NCBI GenBank assembly: GCA_963751455.1
Contig: CAVVUN010000012.1
Span: 642,458-706,457, forward strand
DNA length: 64,000 nucleotides
Direction: 5' to 3'
Source: Nitrospirota bacterium
GTDB lineage: Bacteria; Nitrospirota; UBA9217
The notes under the pieces are model-generated. The model was not told where the DNA came from and ran no database searches. It worked only from the letters and a program-made list of their open reading frames with translations. A program made the translations under genes and the position numbers. Positions within the stretch are counted from its first letter, which is position 1. The number at the start of each line of letters is the position of its first letter. Shown piece after piece: positions 51,022 through 64,000 of the stretch.

Positions 51022-52597
51022 ATGAACTACACTGAAGAACATATTTCGACCGACTTCCTGATTATCGGGGGCGGCGTGGCTGGCCTGCGGGCAGCCGTTG
51101 AGCTTGCGCGGAACGGCACGGTCATTGCGGTGACTAAGGACGCCCCTTCCGAGAGCAGCAGCGAATATGCGCAGGGCGGGGTGGCGGTCGTGCTGTCCGA
51201 CGAGGATGAGATCTCTATTCATCTGGACGACACGATCAAGGCCGGAGATGGGCTCTGCCTGCGCAAGGCGGTAGGCACGCTCGTCGCCGAAGGGCCAACC
51301 CGGATTCGCGAGCTTATCCTGTGGGGCGCCGAGTTCGACAAGGAGGACACCAAGCTCGCCTTCACGCAGGAGGCAGCCCATTCTAAACGCAGGATACTTC
51401 ATGCGCAGGGAGATTCCACCGGCCACGAAATAATGCGCGTTCTCGTTGACAAGGTCCGAAGCATGGAAAACGTTTCGAAGATCGACTTTGCGTTCACAAG
51501 GGACTTGATCATAAAGAACGGCAGGTGCGTCGGCGCAATAGTGTGTCAGCAGGCGCTTAGAAAAAGTCCTCATCATATCGGCCCGTGCTGTGCTGCTTGC
51601 CACAGGAGGGGCCGGCCAGCTCTATGAGCGCACGACAAACCCGGCAGTCTCAACCGGCGACGGCATGGCAATGGCGTTTCGCGCGGGCGCGGCGCTGGTT
51701 GACATGGAATTCGTCCAGTTTCATCCTACAGCCCTCTTCCGGCCCGGTGCGCCTCAGTTTCTGCTGTCAGAAGCAATGCGTGGAGAGGGGGGGATGCTTA
51801 AAAATACGAACGGAGTCCGCTTTATGGACCGCTACCATCCCGCCCGCGAACTTGCGCCCCGTGATGTTGTTACACGCGCCATCCACTCGGAAATGACGGC
51901 AACCGGATCAAGCAATGTGTTCCTTGATATGACGCATTTGAACCCGGATTACCTCACGAAACGATTTCCGCGAATTTACCGGACCTGCAAGGGGCTCGGC
52001 ATCGATATTACCCGCGAACCCATCCCCGTGTCGCCCGCGGCCCATTACATCATGGGCGGCATCAGGACCGACCTCTGGGGTTCGACCAGCATACCTGGCT
52101 TGTTTGCCGCAGGCGAAACTGCATGCACGGGAGTGCACGGCGCGAACCGGCTCGCAAGCAACTCCCTGCTCGAAGGACTGGTCTACGGAGAACGGGCCGG
52201 CCTTGCCGCTGCGCGCTACGGTCGCAAGCACTTTAACAGGAACACCAACCTCGCCAAGACCTTTCTTAACAGCCTGCATAAGAATCATTCTGCCCCATCA
52301 GAGGCGAATGTCACTGCAATTCGGGCTTCACTTAAAAAACTTATGTGGGATAAGGTCGGTATTGTACGAAACAGGAAAGATCTGGCCGCCGCAATGAAAC
52401 AGCTTCGGGATTGGGACAGGAAGGTAAAGGGTCATCCTCCAGATAGAAGTGTTTTTGAGCTCAAGAATATGATCCTCACGTCAATGCTGATTACCCGTTC
52501 AGCGCTCCTGCGAGAAGGCAGCATCGGTGCGCACTTCAGAAGCGACTTCCCCTCAAAGGGCAAGAACTGGCGAAAGAGGACCCTGCTGACAAAGTAG
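51022..52597 (+). CDS. nadB: L-aspartate oxidase (+1 frameshift in the A-run at 51561-51565)
   Basis: IIGGGVAGL; SEYAQGG; EAAHSKRRILH; LATGGAG; EFVQFHPT; SEAMRGEG; HGANRLASNSLLE; removing one A joins the two ORFs. Confidence 0.93.
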
Positions 52598-54859: not shown

Positions 54860-55207
54860 CTATCCCGGCGATTGACCCGCCTTCAGCAGGCTGACCATGG
54901 GCTCTTCAGGATGGGGAAGACCCGCTATTTTCCAGGACAGAAGAGGATTCATGAATTTCTCTTCAACACATCCGTTCGGTTCGTTTATATGTCTGCAAAT
55001 AGCATTAACAATGGGGAAAAAATCGTATGTCTTGTAATAGAACCGGATGAATTTGAGCATATTGATCATGTCCGGCATCAACTCCGTGACGCCTTCGCGC
55101 GCTGCAAGAAGGCGGGCGACATCCTCGTCCCAGTCTTCAAAATGGACAAGGCAGCCATCTTCATCCATCTCCACTTCTTTTCCTTCCTGCCTGAATACCA
55201 TGGTCAT
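54860..55207 (-). CDS. TusE/DsrC/DsvC-family protein lacking the C-terminal cysteines
   Basis: EMDEDGCLVHFEDWDEDVA; FIRFYY; KIAGLPHP, then no terminal Cys. Confidence 0.8.
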   Translation of the reverse strand: MTMVFRQEGKEVEMDEDGCLVHFEDWDEDVARLLAAREGVTELMPDMINMLKFIRFYYKTYDFFPIVNAICRHINEPNGCVEEKFMNPLLSWKIAGLPHPEEPMVSLLKAGQSPG

Positions 55208-55376
55208 TCACCTCATATCCTTATTAATTTTAGGCCCGATAGTGTTGCTTTGTCAAGGGATCCCGAAACACGGCGCACGGTTTTTTTAAGCGCCTTTGGC
55301 ATGCAAGAAACCCCTTTTATTTGCATGATGTATTTCTAAATGCTATACTGGCATAATAACGACCGGGAGGCGCTTC

Positions 55377-55640
55377 ATGGCGGTTTCTACCCCAAAAATC
55401 AAACTCTACACACTCAGCACCTGCTCGCACTGCACCCGGACCAAGCGATTTTTCAAGGAAAGCGGCATCGACGCCGAATTCGTGGATGTGGATCTTCTGA
55501 CAGGGCCGGAGCGAACAAGAATACTGGATGAAGTGCGTAAACTGAACCCCGATTGCAGTTTCCCGACGATTTGCATCAACGATATCATCATTATAGGTTT
55601 TCACGAGGAGAAATTGCGGAAAGCGCTGGGACTATCATGA
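55377..55640 (+). CDS. Glutaredoxin (NrdH-like)
   Basis: YTLSTCSHC; SFPTI; IIGF. Confidence 0.88.
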   Translation: MAVSTPKIKLYTLSTCSHCTRTKRFFKESGIDAEFVDVDLLTGPERTRILDEVRKLNPDCSFPTICINDIIIIGFHEEKLRKALGLS

Positions 55641-55969
55641 TGACCGAAAAACTGTATGAAGTCCTGTTCAAATACGCCGAATCGCAGGGCATCCGGCTGA
55701 ACAGGGACAAATCTTTTGTAATGGACATTCTTGCCGGTCTGCTCGCGAACGAGGCCAGGTATGGATATCGCTCCTGTCCCTGCCGGTTGGCATGGGGCGA
55801 GAAGGAAAAGGATACAGACATCATCTGTCCCTGCCGGTACCGGGACCCGGACATAAAAGAATATGGAAGCTGTTACTGCGGGCTGTACGTTTCCACTGCA
55901 TGGAATAGCGGAGAAATCGAACACCTGCAGGTACCCGAACGGAGGCCCAAGGAAAAGCGTTTAATGTAG
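55637..55969 (+). CDS. Ferredoxin-thioredoxin reductase catalytic-subunit-like protein
   Basis: YGYRSCPCR; IICPC; GSCYCGLY; VPERRP; ATGA overlap with the glutaredoxin gene. Confidence 0.9.
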   Translation: MMTEKLYEVLFKYAESQGIRLNRDKSFVMDILAGLLANEARYGYRSCPCRLAWGEKEKDTDIICPCRYRDPDIKEYGSCYCGLYVSTAWNSGEIEHLQVPERRPKEKRLM

Positions 55970-56180
55970 CTTCTTCAGACAGAACTTTATCTTCTCCCTA
56001 AATTTTCCTTATCGCGTCATTGCCCTGCGCTTCCCCTCCGGTTAATCGAAAAACAAAAACCAAACCAAAAATAGTTGGTATTTCAACAAATTTAATTTGA
56101 CATTTTTTGCATCAATATGCTAAAGTATTACTGTTTTGTTCCGTATTTGTAAATTCAATGATGTTTGAGTGGAGGCACCT

Positions 56181-57119
56181 ATGGCCCATACGCTCTACTG
56201 GCTGCAGGCCGGCGCATGCAGCGGCGACAGCATGTCGCTTCTCAGCGCTGAGTCCCCGGACCTGGTCGAGGCACTCGGTTTCTTCAATATAGAGGTCCTC
56301 TGGCATCCCTCCCTTGCGAACATCAGCGCCGCCGAACATGAGGCGCTTCTCACCGCATTACAAAGCGGAAAAAAGCCGCTCGACATCCTTTGCATCGAAG
56401 GCTCAATCATTACCGGACCCGGCGACACAGGCCTGTTCGATATGTTCAAAGGCCGGCCCAAAAAAGACCTTGTACTGTCGCTTGCGGCCCAGGCAAAGCT
56501 GGTCGTGGCCGTGGGTACCTGCGCAAGCTTTGGGGGCATCCCTGCAATCGCGGAATCGGCTGGGACCGGACTTCAGTTTCACCGCCGGACCAAGGGCGGA
56601 CTGCTGGGTGAAGCTTTCACCGCGAAAAGCGGGCTTCCCGTCATCAATCTCCCGGGCTGCCCTTGTCAGAGCGACGTGCTGCTAAGCACGCTGGCGGCCT
56701 CTATATCAGGAGTCAAGCTTTCACTGAATGAGTTCAATTCACCTCTCGAATGGTACGGTGTGCTCGTTCACCAGGGCTGCACCAGGAACGAGTATCACGA
56801 GTATCGGGTCGAGGAGCAGGATTTCGGCGAAAAAGGCTGCCTGTTCTTCCACATGGGATGCCATGGACCGCTTGTGTACGGACCCTGCAACAAGATCCTC
56901 TGGAACAAGCGAAACACCAAAACCCGCATCGGTGTACCGTGCTTCGGCTGCACCAGTCCTGACTTCCCCACTCCCGATGAATTCTTTTTCACGAAGAACA
57001 TCGTGGGTGTGCCTCTGACCTTGCCTGAAGGGGTCGACCGCGCCCACTACCTGGCGTACAAAGACATGGCGGCGTCGGCAGCGCCCACGAGGCTTACAGA
57101 GCGGAAAACGAAGGTCTAA
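56181..57119 (+). CDS. [NiFe] hydrogenase small subunit, cytoplasmic (group 2-like)
   Basis: WLQAGACSGD; EGS; GTCASFGG; NLPGCP; VHQGCTRNE; GCLFFHMGCHGP; CNKILWN; PCFGC; no Tat signal or TM anchor. Confidence 0.92.
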   Translation: MAHTLYWLQAGACSGDSMSLLSAESPDLVEALGFFNIEVLWHPSLANISAAEHEALLTALQSGKKPLDILCIEGSIITGPGDTGLFDMFKGRPKKDLVLSLAAQAKLVVAVGTCASFGGIPAIAESAGTGLQFHRRTKGGLLGEAFTAKSGLPVINLPGCPCQSDVLLSTLAASISGVKLSLNEFNSPLEWYGVLVHQGCTRNEYHEYRVEEQDFGEKGCLFFHMGCHGPLVYGPCNKILWNKRNTKTRIGVPCFGCTSPDFPTPDEFFFTKNIVGVPLTLPEGVDRAHYLAYKDMAASAAPTRLTERKTKV

Positions 57120-57258
57120 GTCGAAAGCATCTCATAATCGCGAACTCCAAAGCCGAAACACATAAGTAATGATCTGAACGGCATCGCGACTTTGAAATTT
57201 ATTAATTATAAGTTCGTGTACGTTTGCGGGACCCACTATCCGGCCCGGGAGGCATTTG

Positions 57259-58803
57259 ATGTCGAATAAAGTAAAAATAGAGATTCCCCTGAACAGGGTC
57301 GAAGGCGATCTGGAAATCAGGGTCGAGATCGAGGATGGAATTGTGACCGATGCCTGGAGTTCCGGCATTATGTTCCGCGGCTTTGAAGGACTCCTGAAGG
57401 GACGCGGTGCGCGGGACGGCCTCGTAATCACACCCCGCGTCTGCGGCATCTGCACAACCGGCCACCTGACGGCCGCCGCGAGAGCGCTTGATGCGGCATC
57501 CGGCGCGACAGTCCCGCCGGATGCAACCCGGATCAGGAACCTTGCCCTTATGACAGAACATATACAAAGCGACGTTCGCCACGGTGTTCTGATGTTTGCC
57601 GTGGATTTCGTGAACGCGGCCTACCAGTCTCATCCGCTTTTCGAAGAAGCCGTAAAGCGGTATCAGCCGTTCAAGGGCGACGTCGTCGTGGACGTGATCA
57701 AGAAAACGAAAAAGGTGCTGGAGATCGTGGCCATCCTCGGCGGCCAGTGGCCCCACTCCTCGTTCATGGTGCCTGGCGGCATTGCATCGATTCCCAGCAG
57801 CAACGACATTTTTCAGTGCAGTTACCTGCTCGAAATTTATACAAAATGGTATGAGGAGATCATTCTCGGCTGCACGCTCGAGCGATGGAGCGAGGTGAGA
57901 AACCTCGCTGACCTTGATGCCTGGCTGGAAGAACGCTATACACACCGGAACAGTCACGTCGGATTCTACATCCGTTTTGCGAGAAAAATCGGACTCGAAA
58001 ACATAGGCAAGGGGTACGGTAATTTTTTGAGCTTCGGCTCTCTGGAAATACCCGGAGGTTCCGCGGTAAAGGGCAGGAAGAACCAAAGCATGCTCATCCC
58101 GTCCGGGTTCATGAAGGCCGGGCAGTCGGCAGCGTTTGACCAGGCCAGGATCGCGGAACATGTTGCTCATTCCTGGTATGAAGATTATGAAGGCGGCAAG
58201 CATCCGTTCGAGGGAGAAACACAACCGTTGTCCACGCTCGAAAGCGACCGGAAATACTCCTGGGCAAAAGCCCCCCGTTACGACGGATCTCCTGCCGAGA
58301 CCGGGCCGCTGGCAGAATTGGCAATCGCCGGTCATCCCCTCATCAATGATCTTCTCGCAAAGCTCGGGCCTAATGTGTTTGTACGCGAGCTAGCGCGTCT
58401 CATACGGCCGGCCGAACTGATTCCCGCAATGGAAACATGGCTATCGGAAGTAAAGGAAGGTGCGCTCTTCTATAAACCCTGCGGAGAGATAGTCGACGGC
58501 GAGGGTTTCGGCCTGACCCACGCTTCCCGCGGGGCGCTCGGCCACTGGGTTAAAATCCGGAACAGAAAGATCGATCGCTATCAGATCATAACCCCTACCG
58601 CCTGGAACGGCTCTCCGCGTGACTCGCAGGGACTGCGCGGCCCATGGGAAGAGGCCCTCATCGGTACCCCCGTCAAGGATCCCGCCAACCCGATCGAGTT
58701 GGGACATGTCATCAGGTCGTATGACGCGTGCCTTGTCTGTACAGTGCATGCGGTACACCGCGGAAACAATCAGACGCGCAGAATGCCCGGAGCATCGATG
58801 TGA
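57259..58803 (+). CDS. [NiFe] hydrogenase large subunit (group 2b/2c-like), with C-terminal extension
   Basis: NRVEGD; FRGFE; L1 PRVCGIC; GGQWPHS; YSWAKAPRY; RGALGHW; YQIITPTAWN; L2 DACLVCTVH followed by 17 residues. Confidence 0.95.
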   Translation: MSNKVKIEIPLNRVEGDLEIRVEIEDGIVTDAWSSGIMFRGFEGLLKGRGARDGLVITPRVCGICTTGHLTAAARALDAASGATVPPDATRIRNLALMTEHIQSDVRHGVLMFAVDFVNAAYQSHPLFEEAVKRYQPFKGDVVVDVIKKTKKVLEIVAILGGQWPHSSFMVPGGIASIPSSNDIFQCSYLLEIYTKWYEEIILGCTLERWSEVRNLADLDAWLEERYTHRNSHVGFYIRFARKIGLENIGKGYGNFLSFGSLEIPGGSAVKGRKNQSMLIPSGFMKAGQSAAFDQARIAEHVAHSWYEDYEGGKHPFEGETQPLSTLESDRKYSWAKAPRYDGSPAETGPLAELAIAGHPLINDLLAKLGPNVFVRELARLIRPAELIPAMETWLSEVKEGALFYKPCGEIVDGEGFGLTHASRGALGHWVKIRNRKIDRYQIITPTAWNGSPRDSQGLRGPWEEALIGTPVKDPANPIELGHVIRSYDACLVCTVHAVHRGNNQTRRMPGASM

Positions 58804-59267
58804 AACGCATAATCTGCATCGGAAACCGGTATCTCAGTGAGGATGCTGCAGGCCCCCGCGTTTTCGATTATCTTGCGGGCCTGGCCATGCCGGGCGATGT
58901 GGAGCTCATCGACGGCGGCATCGCCGGCTTGAATCTCCTCGGCCTTGTAGATGGGGCCGAACGGGTCGTGTTTGTGGATGCCGTATCCGGCATCGCGGAC
59001 CGGGGCGTCGTCGTCCTGCCCGCTGCTGAAGTTCCCGCGCCATCAACCATATTTGATCACGCAGCAGGAGTTCAATATCTTATCAGCATAATTCCCCATG
59101 TCTGTGAATCCGCCCCGGACGATCTCTACCTCGTCGGGATCGAGGGCGAGGCCGATCGAGCCATGATCGCTGAGGCGGCGCAAACGAGTATGCGCCTTGC
59201 CGCACATGGATTTCAATCCGCGGGAAATGATCTGTTCACCGGAGGTAGCGATGAGCGCGTCCACTGA
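58800..59267 (+). CDS. Hydrogenase maturation endopeptidase
   Basis: GTG start overlapping the large-subunit stop; CIGNRYLSEDAAG; LIDGG; VFVDAV; FDH; LVGIEG. Confidence 0.9.
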   Translation: MKRIICIGNRYLSEDAAGPRVFDYLAGLAMPGDVELIDGGIAGLNLLGLVDGAERVVFVDAVSGIADRGVVVLPAAEVPAPSTIFDHAAGVQYLISIIPHVCESAPDDLYLVGIEGEADRAMIAEAAQTSMRLAAHGFQSAGNDLFTGGSDERVH

Positions 59268-60300
59268 CCAACGGAGCCTGGAAGACCTGCAAAAAGAGAA
59301 CGCCCTGCTTCTCGCCGAAATCAAGACGGCACGCAAAGCATCTGAGGTCAAGAACGGCGTTGTAATCGAGCAGTTTAAAAAAATCGATGCCATGCTGAAG
59401 CGGCTGGAAGAAGAAGCGGCGAAGGAACAGAAGCTCCGGCAGCAGCTCAAGAAGGAGCTTCGCATATCCGAAGAGCGCAAGCGCGAACTTGATGCGGCTC
59501 GTGCTGTTGCCGAGCAGTCTCTGGAATCGCTGAAACAGGCGCAGAAGAGTCTCGTTGAATCAGAAAAGATGGCGGCCTTGGGCGGCCTGGTCGCGGGTGT
59601 GGCCCATGAAATCAATACACCGGTCGGGGTCGGTATAACGGCGGCGACACACCTGCAGGAAAAACTGAAGGAACTGGTCGCCGAATACAAGGCCGGGACC
59701 ATGAAGCGCTCCACGCTGGACAAATACCTCGAGACCACCGAAGAGACGCTCGAAATCACCATGACAAACCTGATGCGAGCCGCCGAACTTATCGCGAGTT
59801 TCAAACAAGTGGCCGTTGACCAGTCGAGCGAGGACCGCCGCAGGTTCAACTTCAAGGGCTACCTGAACGATGTGCTTCTCAGCCTTAAGCACGAGTACAA
59901 AAAAACAAAGCACCGGGTCGAGGTCTCCGGGCCCGACGACGTGGAAGTCGACAGTTTTCCGGGCGCCTTTTCACAGATCGTAACCAATCTGCTGATGAAT
60001 TCGCTCATTCATGCTTATGAAAAAGACGATGAGGGACAGATTCTGTTCGAGGTGAGGCACGACAACGGAATGATAAAACTGGTGTATTCCGATAACGGCA
60101 AGGGCATACCTGCCGAAAACCTTCCCCGCATTTTCGATCCCTTTTTCACGACAAAGCGCGGCAAGGGTGGAAGCGGACTCGGCATGCATATTGTGTACAA
60201 CCTGGTGAAAAGCAAGCTTAACGGCACGATAACCTGTTCCAGTACGGTAGGGCAGGGAACAACGTTCATGATTGCCTTTCCAGCTGGTTTAGGAGGTTAG
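59251..60300 (+). CDS. Cytoplasmic histidine kinase with only a coiled-coil N-terminus
   Basis: EKMAALGGLVAGVAHEINTP; TNLLMNSLIHAY; DNGKG; FFTTKRGKGGSGLG; no TM or PAS. Confidence 0.93.
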   Translation: MSASTDQRSLEDLQKENALLLAEIKTARKASEVKNGVVIEQFKKIDAMLKRLEEEAAKEQKLRQQLKKELRISEERKRELDAARAVAEQSLESLKQAQKSLVESEKMAALGGLVAGVAHEINTPVGVGITAATHLQEKLKELVAEYKAGTMKRSTLDKYLETTEETLEITMTNLMRAAELIASFKQVAVDQSSEDRRRFNFKGYLNDVLLSLKHEYKKTKHRVEVSGPDDVEVDSFPGAFSQIVTNLLMNSLIHAYEKDDEGQILFEVRHDNGMIKLVYSDNGKGIPAENLPRIFDPFFTTKRGKGGSGLGMHIVYNLVKSKLNGTITCSSTVGQGTTFMIAFPAGLGG

Positions 60301-60302
60301 GG

Positions 60303-61967
60303 ATGGAAGGTTCTGACGAATTGTTATTCACGGAAGAGGCCGAAGCGCAGCCAGCATCAGCGGAAGCGACCGGGTCGACACCTGTGGCGGGAGGGTGGAA
60401 AGTACTTCTGGTCGACGATGAAAAGGAAGTTCATTCCATCACGAAGATAGCCTTGAGCGACTTTGTGTTTGAGAGAAAGAAAATAGAATTTATCAACGCG
60501 TATTCAGCGGCTGAGGCGAAGGTGCTGATAGCGCAGCATCCGGACACCGCGCTTATTCTTCTGGACGTGGTCATGGAAGCGGATGACGCAGGGCTCCAGG
60601 TTGTGAAGCATGTCCGCGAGGCGCTCAAGAACACCATGGTGAGGATAATCCTCCGGACCGGGCAGCCGGGACAGGCGCCCGAGCGGAAGGTCATTGTGGA
60701 TTTCGATATCAATGACTACAAGACCAAGACGGAGCTCACCGCACAAAAATTATTCACCACCGTAGTTGCCGCCCTTCGGGCGTACCGTGACATCAAGATC
60801 ATCGACAGTAATAAAAAGGGGCTTGAAAAGATCATCGAAGCCTCGTCGTCGATCTTTGAACTGAAATCCCTCGAAAACTTTATTGTGGGCGCGCTTACGC
60901 AGATTACATCTCTCCTGTACCTGGAAGAGCATTCAGCCTTTGTCATGAGCTTCGCAGCCTGCGAAAAGGACGGCGAACTGTACATCCTTGCCGGAACCGG
61001 CGCATATGCCGCCTTCAACATGAAGCGGGTGAAAGAGGTTGTGCCTCCCGACATCCAGGAGTGCCTGGAGAGGGCCGTAGCTCAGGGAGAGACTCAGTAT
61101 CTGGAAGGCCGCTGCGTCATTTACTTTAAGACGAAAAACGGCAGGCACAATATGATCTTCATGCATGGCATGAAGCAACTGACCGCCTGGGACAAAAACC
61201 TGCTCGATATTTTCTGCGGAAATATTGCGGTGGCCATGGATAACATTTATTTAATAGATCGCATCGTACAGAAGGAGCTCGAGGCCGAACGCAACCGGAT
61301 GGAAACGGAAAAAGCATGCGAGGCGCTTTCCCGCTACGTGAGCCCGCAGATAGCCGGAGAAATTCTGCTGAAAGGGACGACCTTCGGGGGTGAGCGGACA
61401 GTGGCAACCATATTATTCTTCGACATCCGTAATTTTACCGCCTACAGCGACGACATGCGGGCCGAACAGGTCGTCGGATTCTTAAACGGTCTTTTCAATG
61501 AAGTCGTGGATATCATTTTCGAATATACCGGCACCCTGGACAAATTCCTCGGAGACGGGCTCATGGCCGTGTTCGGCGTACCGCTCAGCACGGGAGCCGA
61601 CGAGATAAACGCGGTTACCGCAGCGCTCAAAATCAGGGAAGCCGTGAATGAGATGAACCGGTTCAGGGTCATAGAGAATCAGCAGCCCATCAAGTTCGGC
61701 ATTGGAATCCATACGGGAGAGGTGGTGGCTGGAAACGTCGGCTCGAAAAAACGGGTAGACTATACGGTAATCGGTAGATCCGTAAATCTCGCTTCGCGGG
61801 TCGAAGCGCTGACCAAGCACTTCAATACGGATATACTGATAACACAGGAAACATTTGAGAAAGTGAAGAATACGGTCAATTGCACACCGCTGGAAGCTGT
61901 TTCCGTTAAGGGTATCCAGAAGCCGGTCGCGACCTACTCCATCAGGGGGCTGAGACCGGACCTGTAA
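60303..61967 (+). CDS. Response regulator with REC, DUF3369-like and class III adenylyl cyclase domains
   Basis: LLVDDE; LLDVVME; RIILRTGQPGQAPE; DINDYKTK; LFFDIRNFT; DKFLGDG; GIGIHTG; DYTVIG.SVNLASR; VKG. Confidence 0.92.
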   Translation: MEGSDELLFTEEAEAQPASAEATGSTPVAGGWKVLLVDDEKEVHSITKIALSDFVFERKKIEFINAYSAAEAKVLIAQHPDTALILLDVVMEADDAGLQVVKHVREALKNTMVRIILRTGQPGQAPERKVIVDFDINDYKTKTELTAQKLFTTVVAALRAYRDIKIIDSNKKGLEKIIEASSSIFELKSLENFIVGALTQITSLLYLEEHSAFVMSFAACEKDGELYILAGTGAYAAFNMKRVKEVVPPDIQECLERAVAQGETQYLEGRCVIYFKTKNGRHNMIFMHGMKQLTAWDKNLLDIFCGNIAVAMDNIYLIDRIVQKELEAERNRMETEKACEALSRYVSPQIAGEILLKGTTFGGERTVATILFFDIRNFTAYSDDMRAEQVVGFLNGLFNEVVDIIFEYTGTLDKFLGDGLMAVFGVPLSTGADEINAVTAALKIREAVNEMNRFRVIENQQPIKFGIGIHTGEVVAGNVGSKKRVDYTVIGRSVNLASRVEALTKHFNTDILITQETFEKVKNTVNCTPLEAVSVKGIQKPVATYSIRGLRPDL

Positions 61968-62147: not shown

Positions 62148-63380
62148 ATGGCAACGGCAATATTCAAGACAATAGGTTTCGCTGTAATTATTTTCGTAGC
62201 CGGGGGCTCGGCTGTATGGGCACAGGATATCGTGCTGGGGACCTCTGCGGCATTTAAAGGGCCGTCAAAGGGACTGGGCATAGAGCTGTACCGCGGAGCG
62301 AAGGCATACATCGATCATATAAACGCCGGAGGCGGCATACACGGCAACACGATCGTTCTCAAGGGTTACGATGACGGGTATAATCCGACACCGGCCATAG
62401 AAAATACAATCAGAATGATCGAGAAGGACGACGTCTTTCTCCTCATGAATTACGTAGGCACGCCAACCGTTACCCGCGTTCTGCCTCTCCTTAAAAAATA
62501 TCAGGACAATAACATCTATCTCTTCTTTCCATTTACCGGCGCGCAGCCGCAAAGGGAATTTCCGTACGATGCCTTTGTATTCAATCTCCGGGCGTCCTAC
62601 CGGCAGGAGACTGAGGGGTTGGTTAAAAAGTTTCTCGCCGTCGGTAGAAACCGGATCGCGGTGTTCTACCAGGCGGATTCATACGGAAGGAGCGGTTGGG
62701 ATGGAGTAAGGAGGGCACTGGCAAGAGCCGACCTTAAGATCGCGGCTGAGGCTACGTACCGCAGAGGGGCCGTATTCCAGGAAAGCATGGTGCGGCAGGT
62801 CAACATCATCAGGCAGTCACAAGCCGACGCTATCGTCGCCGTCGGTTCCTATGCGGCTTGCGCCGCCTTCATAAGGGACGCCCGGGACAGCGGTATGACC
62901 GTGCCTATTGCCAATCTTTCTTTCGTCGGTAGTGAAAACCTTCTCGGTCAATTGCTCGAGGCGGGCAAACTGAACGGCAAAAACTATACCGGGAACCTCA
63001 TAAATTCACAGGTTGTGCCGAGCTACGAAGATATGTCCCTGCCGGCGGTCAGGGAATACAGGGAACTGATGAACAGATACAGCCCGTCCCCGCCCTCGGG
63101 CCTTGCCGAACCTGGATACCAGCCGTTTCCGTACAGCTTTGTCAGTTTTGAAGGTTTCCTGAACGCAAAGCTCCTCGTTAAAATCCTTAACAATATGAAA
63201 ACCCTCGATAAAAAACAGATACGGTCCACCGTCGAAGAAATCAGGTACCTGGACATCGGGACAGGCGCCAGGGTCTCCTTCGGGAAGAACAGGCATCAGG
63301 GTCTGGACACCGTGTATTTCACGACCGTCGCGGACGGGAGATTCGTCCCCATCGACAGTTGGGAGGCGTGGAGAAAATGA
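62148..63380 (+). CDS. Periplasmic ligand-binding protein (LIV/PBP1 family, probably sensory)
   Basis: Signal peptide; INAGGGIHG; YDDGYNP; VGTPT; NLRASY; SFEGFLNAK. Confidence 0.88.
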   Translation: MATAIFKTIGFAVIIFVAGGSAVWAQDIVLGTSAAFKGPSKGLGIELYRGAKAYIDHINAGGGIHGNTIVLKGYDDGYNPTPAIENTIRMIEKDDVFLLMNYVGTPTVTRVLPLLKKYQDNNIYLFFPFTGAQPQREFPYDAFVFNLRASYRQETEGLVKKFLAVGRNRIAVFYQADSYGRSGWDGVRRALARADLKIAAEATYRRGAVFQESMVRQVNIIRQSQADAIVAVGSYAACAAFIRDARDSGMTVPIANLSFVGSENLLGQLLEAGKLNGKNYTGNLINSQVVPSYEDMSLPAVREYRELMNRYSPSPPSGLAEPGYQPFPYSFVSFEGFLNAKLLVKILNNMKTLDKKQIRSTVEEIRYLDIGTGARVSFGKNRHQGLDTVYFTTVADGRFVPIDSWEAWRK

Positions 63381-64000
63381 AAATGTCCGCCCTGTTCAAA
63401 AAAACACTCATGATCATGGTGGCGCTTTTCGGCATCATTGCCGCATCCACATCGCTCTACTCTGGGTGGAACCTGCGCCATGCGCTCTCCGAAGAATACC
63501 GGAGCAAAGGCATGGCGATTGCGAAGAGCATAGCGGACTCAAGCGTGGAGGTGCTTATGAACAGAGACGCATCGAGCGCGCAGTCCATGATTGACCAGTT
63601 TCTTGAAATTCAGGGGGTCAAATACATATTCATTATTGACGGAAGCGGCGATATCATATCCCATACGTTTGTGCCGACGATACCGCCAGAACTGGCCAAC
63701 TTCAGGAATGAGGGAAACGCCCTTTCCATAAAGGACTTCGAAATAGAGGCCGTCGGCCCAATCATGGACGTGTCCTCCCCGATCCTTGCAGGCGTAGCAG
63801 GGACCGTGCACGTCGGGATGGACAAGGGTCTTATCAAGTCCGCCATCATCTCGGCTATCGTACGGCAACTCACGATCATGGCCGCTATTTTCGTATTCAG
63901 CATTGTGGTTGCGTATCTGTTCGTGAGGAGAATATCTCAGCCCCTGAACGAGTTGAGCAGGTATGCAGACCGGCTTGCCGCGAAGGATTTCTCTGCGCGT
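63377..64000 (+). CDS. Membrane sensor N-terminus (TM-periplasmic-TM-HAMP), truncated by the window edge
   Basis: ATGA overlap with the upstream gene; MKMSALFKKTLMIMVALFGII...; SHTFVP; GTVHVGMD; RRISQPLNELSRYA HAMP start; open to the end of the window. Confidence 0.8.
   Translation, partial: MKMSALFKKTLMIMVALFGIIAASTSLYSGWNLRHALSEEYRSKGMAIAKSIADSSVEVLMNRDASSAQSMIDQFLEIQGVKYIFIIDGSGDIISHTFVPTIPPELANFRNEGNALSIKDFEIEAVGPIMDVSSPILAGVAGTVHVGMDKGLIKSAIISAIVRQLTIMAAIFVFSIVVAYLFVRRISQPLNELSRYADRLAAKDFSAR

What the first reader, a model, noticed from the sequence alone, without database searches (positions are those of the whole stretch)
56181..61967. Candidate H2-sensing cAMP signalling operon: [NiFe] hydrogenase, protease, histidine kinase and receiver-adenylyl cyclase
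Seen: five co-oriented genes. The large subunit overlaps the protease, the protease overlaps the kinase, and the kinase ends 2 nt before the cyclase. The hydrogenase has no Tat signal, TM anchor, cytochrome b or diaphorase partner. The cyclase keeps both metal Asp (FFDIRNF, GDG), the ATP-specifying Lys (DKFLG) and Asp (DYTVIG), and the N/R of VNLASR. Established: sensory hydrogenases HoxBC/HupUV (group 2b) signal through PAS kinases HoxJ/HupT to NtrC-type regulators, and group 2c enzymes are predicted to link to diguanylate cyclases. Inference: here H2 would be relayed by phosphotransfer to cAMP synthesis, an output I do not know to have been described.
Basis: partly seen in the sequence, partly recalled or inferred. 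Interest (0 to 1): 0.85.

Follow-up and report, generated by a model that had tools for sequence, protein, structure and literature searches.

The report
Hydrogen-sensor hydrogenase wired to cAMP
Five adjacent genes in an uncultured bacterium encode a nickel-iron hydrogenase of a never-tested, putatively sensory class, a kinase that begins with a helix found only behind such hydrogenases, and a likely cAMP-making enzyme, so hydrogen gas would likely set cAMP levels, an output not listed for these sensors.

Summary
The five genes are real and intact. The hydrogenase is a HydDB group 2c enzyme ('diguanylate cyclase-linked, putative'), not 2b or an uptake enzyme. The kinase has no PAS or membrane sensor. 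It starts with a ~55-residue helix unknown to Pfam and PDB. That helix sat right behind a 2c hydrogenase in all 12 of 802 genomes that carry it, and in 61 of 70 loci of the 2c clade. It is fused to kinases, GGDEF or phosphatase domains, so it is the likely hydrogenase-coupling input. The output here is a receiver-DUF3369-class III cyclase with adenylyl-type residues. This cAMP wiring is rare: 2 of 70 loci, 2 of 401 phylum genomes. It has near-identical phosphotransfer residues and probably feeds the same cyclase. Verdict: new variant of a known but untested kind, interest 0.62.

The parts
56097..56126 (+). sigma-70-like promoter match (10 of 12) upstream of the small subunit; not above chance
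   Evidence: 5 sites found, 3.9 +/- 2.1 in shuffles
56181..57119 (+). [NiFe] hydrogenase small subunit, 312 aa, no Tat signal. Proximal C13/D16/C114/C160 plus an extra C162; distal H197/C200/C220/C227; medial C236/C254/C257 with K247 where HoxB has Cys
57259..58803 (+). [NiFe] hydrogenase large subunit, group 2c, 514 aa. Ni ligands C62/C65/C491/C494 intact; 17-residue C-terminal extension after H497
58800..59267 (+). HycI-family hydrogenase maturation protease, 155 aa
   Evidence: PF01750; TIGR00072 over cut-off
59251..60300 (+). soluble histidine kinase, 349 aa (H119, N and G boxes intact), no PAS or TM; modelled as one helix from residue 10 to 147 running into the phospho-His
59272..59439 (+). 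conserved N-terminal helix ('NT' motif) found only on the gene behind group 2c hydrogenases; candidate hydrogenase-coupling input
60303..61967 (+). receiver (60402-60734; D88, T119, K140) - DUF3369 (60762-61265) - class III nucleotidyl cyclase (61404-61946) with adenylyl-type residues, 554 aa
62148..63380 (+). periplasmic binding protein (Peripla_BP_6; ORF open from 62103), likely ligand receptor of the second kinase
63377..64000 (+). N-terminal part (TM, sCache_3, first half of HAMP) of a second, membrane kinase, cut by the contig end. The rest lies at G000:C8:2-922 and is 74% identical to the first kinase over the catalytic core

Best explanation
The locus encodes a group 2c [NiFe] hydrogenase that likely acts as a cytoplasmic H2 sensor, likely binds the N-terminal helix of the neighbouring histidine kinase, and would thereby control phosphorylation of a receiver-DUF3369-adenylyl cyclase and so cAMP. 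Steps: (1) shown: intact 2c subunits, protease and cleavable tail, and Hyp maturation genes elsewhere in the genome. (2) Inferred: H2 reduces the FeS chain; the helix, which runs straight into the phospho-His helix, relays that state without a PAS domain. (3) Inferred: H119 phosphorylates D88 and the cyclase dimer is switched on. (4) Inferred: the downstream binding protein plus membrane Cache kinase is a second input to the same receiver, so cAMP integrates H2 with a periplasmic ligand. On sign I commit, weakly (about 55:45), to H2 turning the kinase off as in HoxJ, so cAMP would be high when H2 is scarce.
For: Class: L2 motif fits the 2c consensus. The large subunit lies in a 100/99-supported clade with DGC/PDE-linked 2c loci, apart from 2a and 2b. 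The genome has separate Tat/cytochrome b-linked and other hydrogenases and HypD, so this one is not needed for uptake. Helix: 61 of 70 clade loci have it on the gene behind the hydrogenase, and 4 of the 9 others end under 600 nt behind it. None of 51 loci without it scores better than E 2.6. In whole genomes, 6 of 401 and 6 of 401 carry it, all 12 directly behind a 2c hydrogenase; 8 of those 12 were not in the training alignment. It is single-copy in the own genome. A protease-helix-GGDEF fusion exists (P0162). 29 of 61 helix-bearing proteins have no PAS or GAF hit. Relay: receiver residues are invariant in 25 of 25 homologues. This kinase class and receiver class lie within 2 kb in 4 of the 8 plasmid records shown in both lists. 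Kinase-to-receiver activation of a class III cyclase is known for CyaC (PMC3009899, passage). Cyclase: K414/T488 pattern as in CyaB, unlike the guanylyl cyclase Cya2. Receivers of cAMP: 19 cNMP-binding matches, 4 CRP-type proteins over the cut-off, one with a G-E...R-S pocket. Second kinase: same phosphotransfer helix in 19 of 20 residues from the His; the two pieces match residues 1-207 and 209-513 of one intact 518-aa protein.
Against: No 2c hydrogenase test was found in the papers searched, so H2 sensing rests on gene context. The small subunit's cluster ligands resemble uptake-type 2a (D16, K247) rather than HoxB, and the enzyme keeps a protease and tail that 2b sensors lack. The cAMP output is rare (2 of 70 loci; 2 of 401 genomes). 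Two cyclase homologues share contig lengths with the membrane kinase and with no listed large subunit or helix kinase, so the cyclase can apparently serve the membrane kinase alone. The genome has four other class III cyclases, which may swamp this one. No CRP-like site was found upstream of the other hydrogenase operons. The helix may be only inherited with the operon: its similarity tracks the small subunit (Spearman 0.58), which kinship alone would give.
Confidence: 0.6

Rival explanations
1. Same wiring, other signal: the hydrogenase-kinase complex reports cell redox state or O2/NO through its unusual proximal FeS cluster, with H2 only one of the reductants.
For: Proximal Asp16 in 51 of 51 and an extra Cys162 in 47 of 51 small subunits, which HoxB and the 2a row lack. 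Oxidation is reported to alter the clusters even in HoxBC (PMC6978683, passage).
Against: All Ni ligands, E15, R424, the tail and the protease are kept, so the H2 site is under selection.
Confidence: 0.15
2. The hydrogenase-kinase pair signals to some other regulator; the cyclase answers mainly to the membrane Cache kinase and merely shares the operon.
For: Cyclase homologues P0279 and P0276 share contig lengths with membrane kinases P0406 and P0407 and with no listed hydrogenase. The output behind the helix kinase varies widely.
Against: The helix kinase's core is 74% identical to the membrane kinase and at most 32% to the kinases of other 2c loci, bar L030. So the core was swapped for one of the cyclase's own kinase class. 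The two genes are 2 nt apart, and the genome has only one DUF3369 protein.
Confidence: 0.1
3. The enzyme is a working uptake hydrogenase like Huc (group 2a), and the kinase helix is a scaffold or a way to regulate it, not a sensor output.
For: Closest solved structure is Huc (E 2e-132). 2a and 2c are sister clades (92/94). HucM is a helical scaffold for Huc lobes (PMC10017518, passages).
Against: No membrane anchor or acceptor gene. The helix is nearly always fused to signalling domains. No helix match near the 2a loci. The genome has other uptake hydrogenases.
Confidence: 0.08
4. H2 sensing and relay are right, but the cyclase makes cGMP or is inactive, or DUF3369 ligand binding rather than phosphorylation controls it.
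For: A second 2c locus (L144) ends in a class III cyclase that lacks the Lys and resembles the guanylyl cyclase Cya2. DUF3369 is GAF-like with unknown ligand (10.1101/2021.11.05.467447, passages).
Against: K414 is kept in 20 of 25 and T488 in 25 of 25 homologues, with both metal Asp. The fold matches CyaB at 2.0 A.
Confidence: 0.07

Closest known systems
HydDB [NiFe] group 2c, 'diguanylate cyclase-linked (putative)' (PMC5037454)
   Same: Same clade and L2 motif; cytoplasmic small and large subunits followed by a signalling gene; protease present in 42 of 70 clade loci.
   Different: All 20 HydDB 2c rows list a diguanylate cyclase/phosphodiesterase partner. Here the partner is a PAS-less kinase and the output an adenylyl-type cyclase. 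In my survey a GGDEF protein was seen at only 14 of 70 loci (many are truncated), while 57 have a helix-bearing kinase.
Group 2b regulatory hydrogenase HoxBC-HoxJ-HoxA (Cupriavidus necator) and HupUV-HupT
   Same: Soluble hydrogenase beside a histidine kinase; Ile at the gas-channel position (I64). This is what the locus most likely works like.
   Different: Not a member: separate clade, 35% identity to HoxC, has a C-terminal tail and protease, Asp/Lys instead of two HoxB cysteines, shorter small-subunit tail. The kinase lacks PAS (PAS in HoxJ is recalled), and the output is a cyclase, not a sigma-54 activator.
Huc (group 2a) of Mycobacterium smegmatis with HucM
   Same: Closest solved structure; the 2a-clade row shares K247, the tail and the protease; Huc lobes dock on a helical partner.
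   Different: Huc reduces menaquinone through HucM. The helix here shows no match near 2a loci and leads into a kinase.
CyaC of Spirulina/Arthrospira and CyaB of Pseudomonas (class III adenylyl cyclases)
   Same: CyaC is activated by kinase phosphorylation of a receiver (PMC3009899); the catalytic domain matches CyaB in sequence and fold.
   Different: Here kinase and receiver-cyclase are separate proteins, with DUF3369 between receiver and cyclase, and the input is a hydrogenase.
RpfY-family REC-DUF3369-HD-GYP phosphodiesterases (VCA0210, DVU0722)
   Same: Same receiver-DUF3369 front end, about 50% identical.
   Different: The output is a cyclase. That combination is not among the DUF3369 partners named in the passages read, though database entries with it exist (about two dozen of 120 rows).

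Membership tests
[NiFe] group 2c | Large subunit clusters with 2c references, apart from 2a and 2b | tested here: met
   (100/99). The anchors are locus L140 (DGC/PDE-linked) and L053/L055, whose N-termini match HydDB 2c rows by eye. The HydDB classifier itself was not available.
[NiFe] group 2c | L2 motif SFDxCLVCTVH | tested here: met
   SYDACLVCTVH, one conservative change
[NiFe] group 2c | Cytoplasmic; medial cluster of the [3Fe-4S] type (three Cys) | tested here: met
   No Tat or TM; C236/C254/C257 with K247 in 51 of 51. Cluster type is predicted, not measured.
[NiFe] group 2c | Linked diguanylate cyclase/phosphodiesterase (HydDB label, predicted) | tested here: not met
   Partner is a kinase plus class III cyclase. 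The class is defined by sequence; a GGDEF partner was seen at 14 of 70 clade loci.
[NiFe] group 2c | H2-sensing activity | not testable with these tools
   HydDB calls the role undetermined
[NiFe] group 2b (HoxBC/HupUV) | Large subunit ends at the last His, no protease; three [4Fe-4S] clusters; 2b clade | tested here: not met
   17-residue tail and protease; D16/K247 against Cys in HoxB; separate clade (three [4Fe-4S] from PMC5665086)
[NiFe] group 2a (Huc/HupSL) | 2a clade | tested here: not met
   The 2a rows form their own 100/100 clade
Class III adenylyl cyclase | Two metal Asp, Asn/Arg pair, Lys plus Asp/Thr for adenine | tested here: met
   D374, D418, N495, R499, K414, T488; residue roles recalled, pattern checked against CyaB and Cya2
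Class III adenylyl cyclase | Makes cAMP from ATP | not testable with these tools
   Needs an assay
Two-component kinase-receiver pair | Phospho-His and ATP boxes; receiver Asp/Thr/Lys; cognate pairing | tested here: inconclusive
   Residues present; pairing supported only by adjacency here and in 4 of 8 plasmid records

The most novel reading that the evidence does not exclude
The ~55-residue helix is a portable H2-input module that docks on group 2c hydrogenases and needs no PAS domain. It has been grafted onto kinases, diguanylate cyclases and phosphatases. In this lineage it was grafted onto a duplicate of a membrane kinase's core, creating a two-input switch in which H2 and a periplasmic ligand jointly set cAMP. 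Group 2c would then be a general H2-signalling hub, and this the first gas-sensing hydrogenase route to cAMP.
Probability: 0.45. Interest if true: 0.8.

Novelty: new variant of a known kind. Interest (0 to 1): 0.62.

Why it matters
The H2-sensing [NiFe] pathway with a worked-out output is HoxBC-HoxJ-HoxA, which switches hydrogenase genes; how it passes the signal is still open (PMC6978683). Group 2c is predicted to sense H2, and I found no test of it. This locus is a compact test case: a 349-residue kinase with one helix as its only input, and a cAMP output that is easy to read in an E. coli cya mutant. If right, H2 would feed a global second messenger, the 'DGC-linked' label of group 2c would need replacing, and the helix could be used to build H2 reporters.

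Tried and rejected
Complex prediction of small subunit with the helix was not available, so binding is untested. No sequencing run was listed for the region, so expression and the contig join could not be checked on reads. The helix has no Pfam family (best single-member E 7e-4), no PDB match at E <= 1 and only unnamed short look-alikes in the Atlas (uninformative for a plain helix). Homology of the helix to the N-terminal coiled coil of the PAS-GGDEF-EAL partners of the beta/gamma 2c subclade was not supported (hhalign probability 9.7%, two template rows). Promoter and terminator scans were at chance level, with no + strand terminator. The two intergenic regions fold no better than shuffles. 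No CRP- or FNR-like site was found upstream of the genome's hydrogenase operons. Chance adjacency of kinase and hydrogenase was rejected. Membership of 2b and 2a was rejected. Greening et al. 2016 (ISME J) is not held; two HydDB supplement archives were too large to read, and either may describe other 2c gene contexts. PMC11023054 uses 'group 2c' for mutagenesis of H2 sensors that I take to be HydDB 2b (passage), so I did not count it as a test of 2c. PMC2907700 (passages) had nothing relevant.
Full report
OBSERVATION. The window is the end of contig C12 of a 5.7 Mb, 15-contig genome. It is in the same family as G012, whose hydrogenase contig is locus L030, titled Nitrospirota. Pfam and NCBIfam give small subunit, large subunit, HycI protease, HATPase kinase, and receiver + DUF3369 + class III cyclase. 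None has a Tat motif or membrane helix. The small and large subunit genes are 139 nt apart. The adenine-specifying partner of K414 is T488, not the Asp of DYT (rule recalled).

CLASS OF THE HYDROGENASE. The L2 motif fits the 2c consensus quoted in PMC4853749 (passage). [quoted passage not shown] I gathered 112 loci: the window, 19 genome contigs, 8 genome regions, the best 80 of 581 metagenome matches from a partial scan and 4 annotated plasmid loci. The 108 with over 400 matched residues went into a tree; 4 were left out. The window's subunit lies in a 70-row clade (SH-aLRT 99) with the DGC/PDE-linked Ideonella locus, apart from 29 rows of the 2a type and from HoxC/HupV. A 26-row tree gave 100/99 for that clade. 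All Ni ligands and a 17-residue tail are present. The small subunit has Asp16 and Lys247 (51 of 51) where HoxB has Cys, and an extra Cys162 (47 of 51) next to the proximal cluster. The genome has HypD and at least three other [NiFe] hydrogenases, two with cytochrome b-like neighbours.

THE HELIX. The kinase has no PAS domain; a model shows one helix from residue 10 to 147 that carries H119 (pTM 0.48). Its first ~55 residues match the N-terminus of the gene behind the hydrogenase in other loci whatever the rest of that protein is. In the 70-row clade 61 loci have it: 57 on a kinase, 3 directly on GGDEF, 1 cut off; L083 has two copies, on a PAS-GGDEF protein and on a kinase. Of the 9 without, 4 end under 600 nt behind the large subunit and 5 form the beta/gamma subclade, 3 of which have a PAS-GGDEF-EAL partner with a different coiled coil. 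Many loci are near-copies, so these counts are not independent. None of the 51 loci without the motif scored better than E 2.6. As a test not started from hydrogenases, the profile was run over whole genomes: 6 of 401 in the phylum of G041 and 6 of 401 in the own phylum matched. All 12 lie directly behind a 2c large subunit or its protease, and 8 were outside the training set. Conversely, 6 of 8 genomes with a strong large-subunit match had it; the other two are more distant enzymes with different kinases. A profile search of 1.84 billion proteins found 219 clusters at E <= 0.001, with the match almost always N-terminal. Among the 101 of the 150 listed that have 200 residues or more, most are kinases, with several GGDEF and two SpoIIE proteins; one is a protease-helix-GGDEF fusion, and two carry unrelated enzyme domains. 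The helix is not in Pfam or PDB. Two earlier AI reports on c-di-GMP versions mention a possible coupling, one naming a short conserved helix; I had seen it before, and they are not independent support. Binding was not tested.

THE cAMP OUTPUT. Downstream outputs seen in the clade: GGDEF 7, HD-GYP 7, sigma-54 2, SpoIIE 2, class III cyclase 2 (window and L030), lone receiver or kinase 18, none visible 24. The full receiver-DUF3369-cyclase was found in 2 of 401 phylum genomes, both with the hydrogenase. At protein level there are 6 close large-subunit clusters (75-83%), 11 close helix kinases (71-83% over residues 1-130) and 10 close full-length cyclases (67-78%). Contig lengths shared between these lists (11497 and 7124 in all three; 4441, 9247 and 29461 in two) suggest about five more copies of the arrangement, one of them L030; this is circumstantial. 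A separate recruitment of a class III cyclase occurs at L144 (another family): helix-hybrid kinase, receiver, then HisKA-receiver-cyclase, but without the Lys, so possibly cGMP. The window's cyclase keeps the CyaB pattern and fold. Receiver residues are invariant in 25 of 25 homologues. The genome has 5 class III cyclases, 19 cNMP-binding matches and 4 CRP-type proteins.

SECOND INPUT AND ORIGIN. Behind the cyclase lie a periplasmic binding protein and a TM-sCache-HAMP gene cut by the contig end. Contig C8 starts with the other half of a HAMP and a kinase core. The two pieces match residues 1-207 and 209-513 of an intact 518-aa protein, so they are most likely one gene. Its core is 74% identical to the helix kinase, against at most 32% for kinases of other 2c loci (bar L030, 83%) and 31% for other kinases of the genome, with 19 of 20 residues from the His alike; no regulator follows it. 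Kinases and receivers of these classes are neighbours in 4 of 8 plasmid records shown in both searches, three of them Azospirillum kin. I infer that a membrane kinase-cyclase module existed first, and that a duplicate of its core acquired the 2c helix. That swap is the best argument that the helix kinase targets this receiver.

MECHANISM. Shown: genes, motifs, clade, co-occurrence. Inferred: H2 reduces the hydrogenase, which sits on the helix and shifts the kinase; H119 phosphorylates D88; the cyclase makes cAMP; the membrane kinase adds a second signal. Precedents: HoxBC forms a tight complex with HoxJ, which phosphorylates its regulator when H2 is absent (PMC10073562, PMC5665086, passages); Huc docks on helical HucM (PMC10017518, passages); CyaC is activated by receiver phosphorylation (PMC3009899, passage). 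Confidence 0.6; rivals are redox sensing (0.15), kinase aimed elsewhere (0.1), uptake enzyme (0.08), cyclase not making cAMP (0.07).

NOVELTY. Four full-text searches of the held library showed no paper linking a sensory hydrogenase to an adenylyl cyclase or testing a HydDB 2c enzyme. I saw listings for all and passages for four of the listed papers on this point (PMC4853749, PMC11023054, PMC2907700, PMC6978683). The library lacks most subscription papers and Greening et al. 2016. Each component is known; the combination, the PAS-less helix input and the two-kinase convergence are what I did not find described.

Noticed in passing
L144:3952-10591 (G734:C21): Independent 2c locus ending in a HisKA-receiver-class III cyclase that lacks the adenine-specifying Lys and resembles the guanylyl cyclase Cya2: a possible H2-to-cGMP route. 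Its large subunit ends at the last His and no protease gene was seen.
   Followed up: partly
L083:3807-6801: One 2c hydrogenase followed by two helix-bearing genes (PAS-GGDEF and PAS-kinase), suggesting two transducers on one sensor.
   Followed up: no
window 56181-57119, residue 162: Extra cysteine (CPC) beside the proximal cluster in 47 of 51 helix-linked small subunits, absent from the HoxB, 2a and beta-type 2c rows aligned; together with Asp16 it suggests an unusual proximal cluster.
   Followed up: partly
L057:6820-12598 and L058:2-2408: Group 2 hydrogenases outside the 2c clade (L057 joins 2b on a long branch) followed by other kinases, in L057 with a receiver-HD-GYP protein: a further kinase-linked lineage.
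   Followed up: no
L098:8796-11618: PAS-GGDEF-EAL partner of a gamma-type 2c hydrogenase appears to carry a Rieske-like Cys/His motif pair ahead of its coiled coil (seen by eye).
   Followed up: no
L133:3780-5856: GAF-class III cyclase and a metallo-beta-lactamase-fold gene directly upstream of, and co-oriented with, a 2c hydrogenase.
   Followed up: partly
L060, L068, L072-L074, L053 and others: 28 of 70 clade loci show no protease hit nearby, though most keep a C-terminal tail; some are truncated. L093 and L144 end at the last His like 2b sensors.
   Followed up: no
window 51022-52597: An L-aspartate-oxidase-like gene (label from recall of its motifs) is split into two overlapping ORFs near 51600: frameshift or assembly error.
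   Followed up: no
G000:C9:105876-107559: A group 1 large subunit is split over two frames near its C-terminus and has in-frame TGA in the profile match: frameshift or assembly error.
   Followed up: no
window 54860-55969: DsrC/TusE-like gene and a ferredoxin-thioredoxin reductase beta chain gene lie just upstream of the operon; not seen at this place in L030.
   Followed up: no
L146:5048-6766, L147:6225-7943: Receiver-DUF3369-SpoIIE proteins in another family of the phylum: same front end, phosphatase output.
   Followed up: partly
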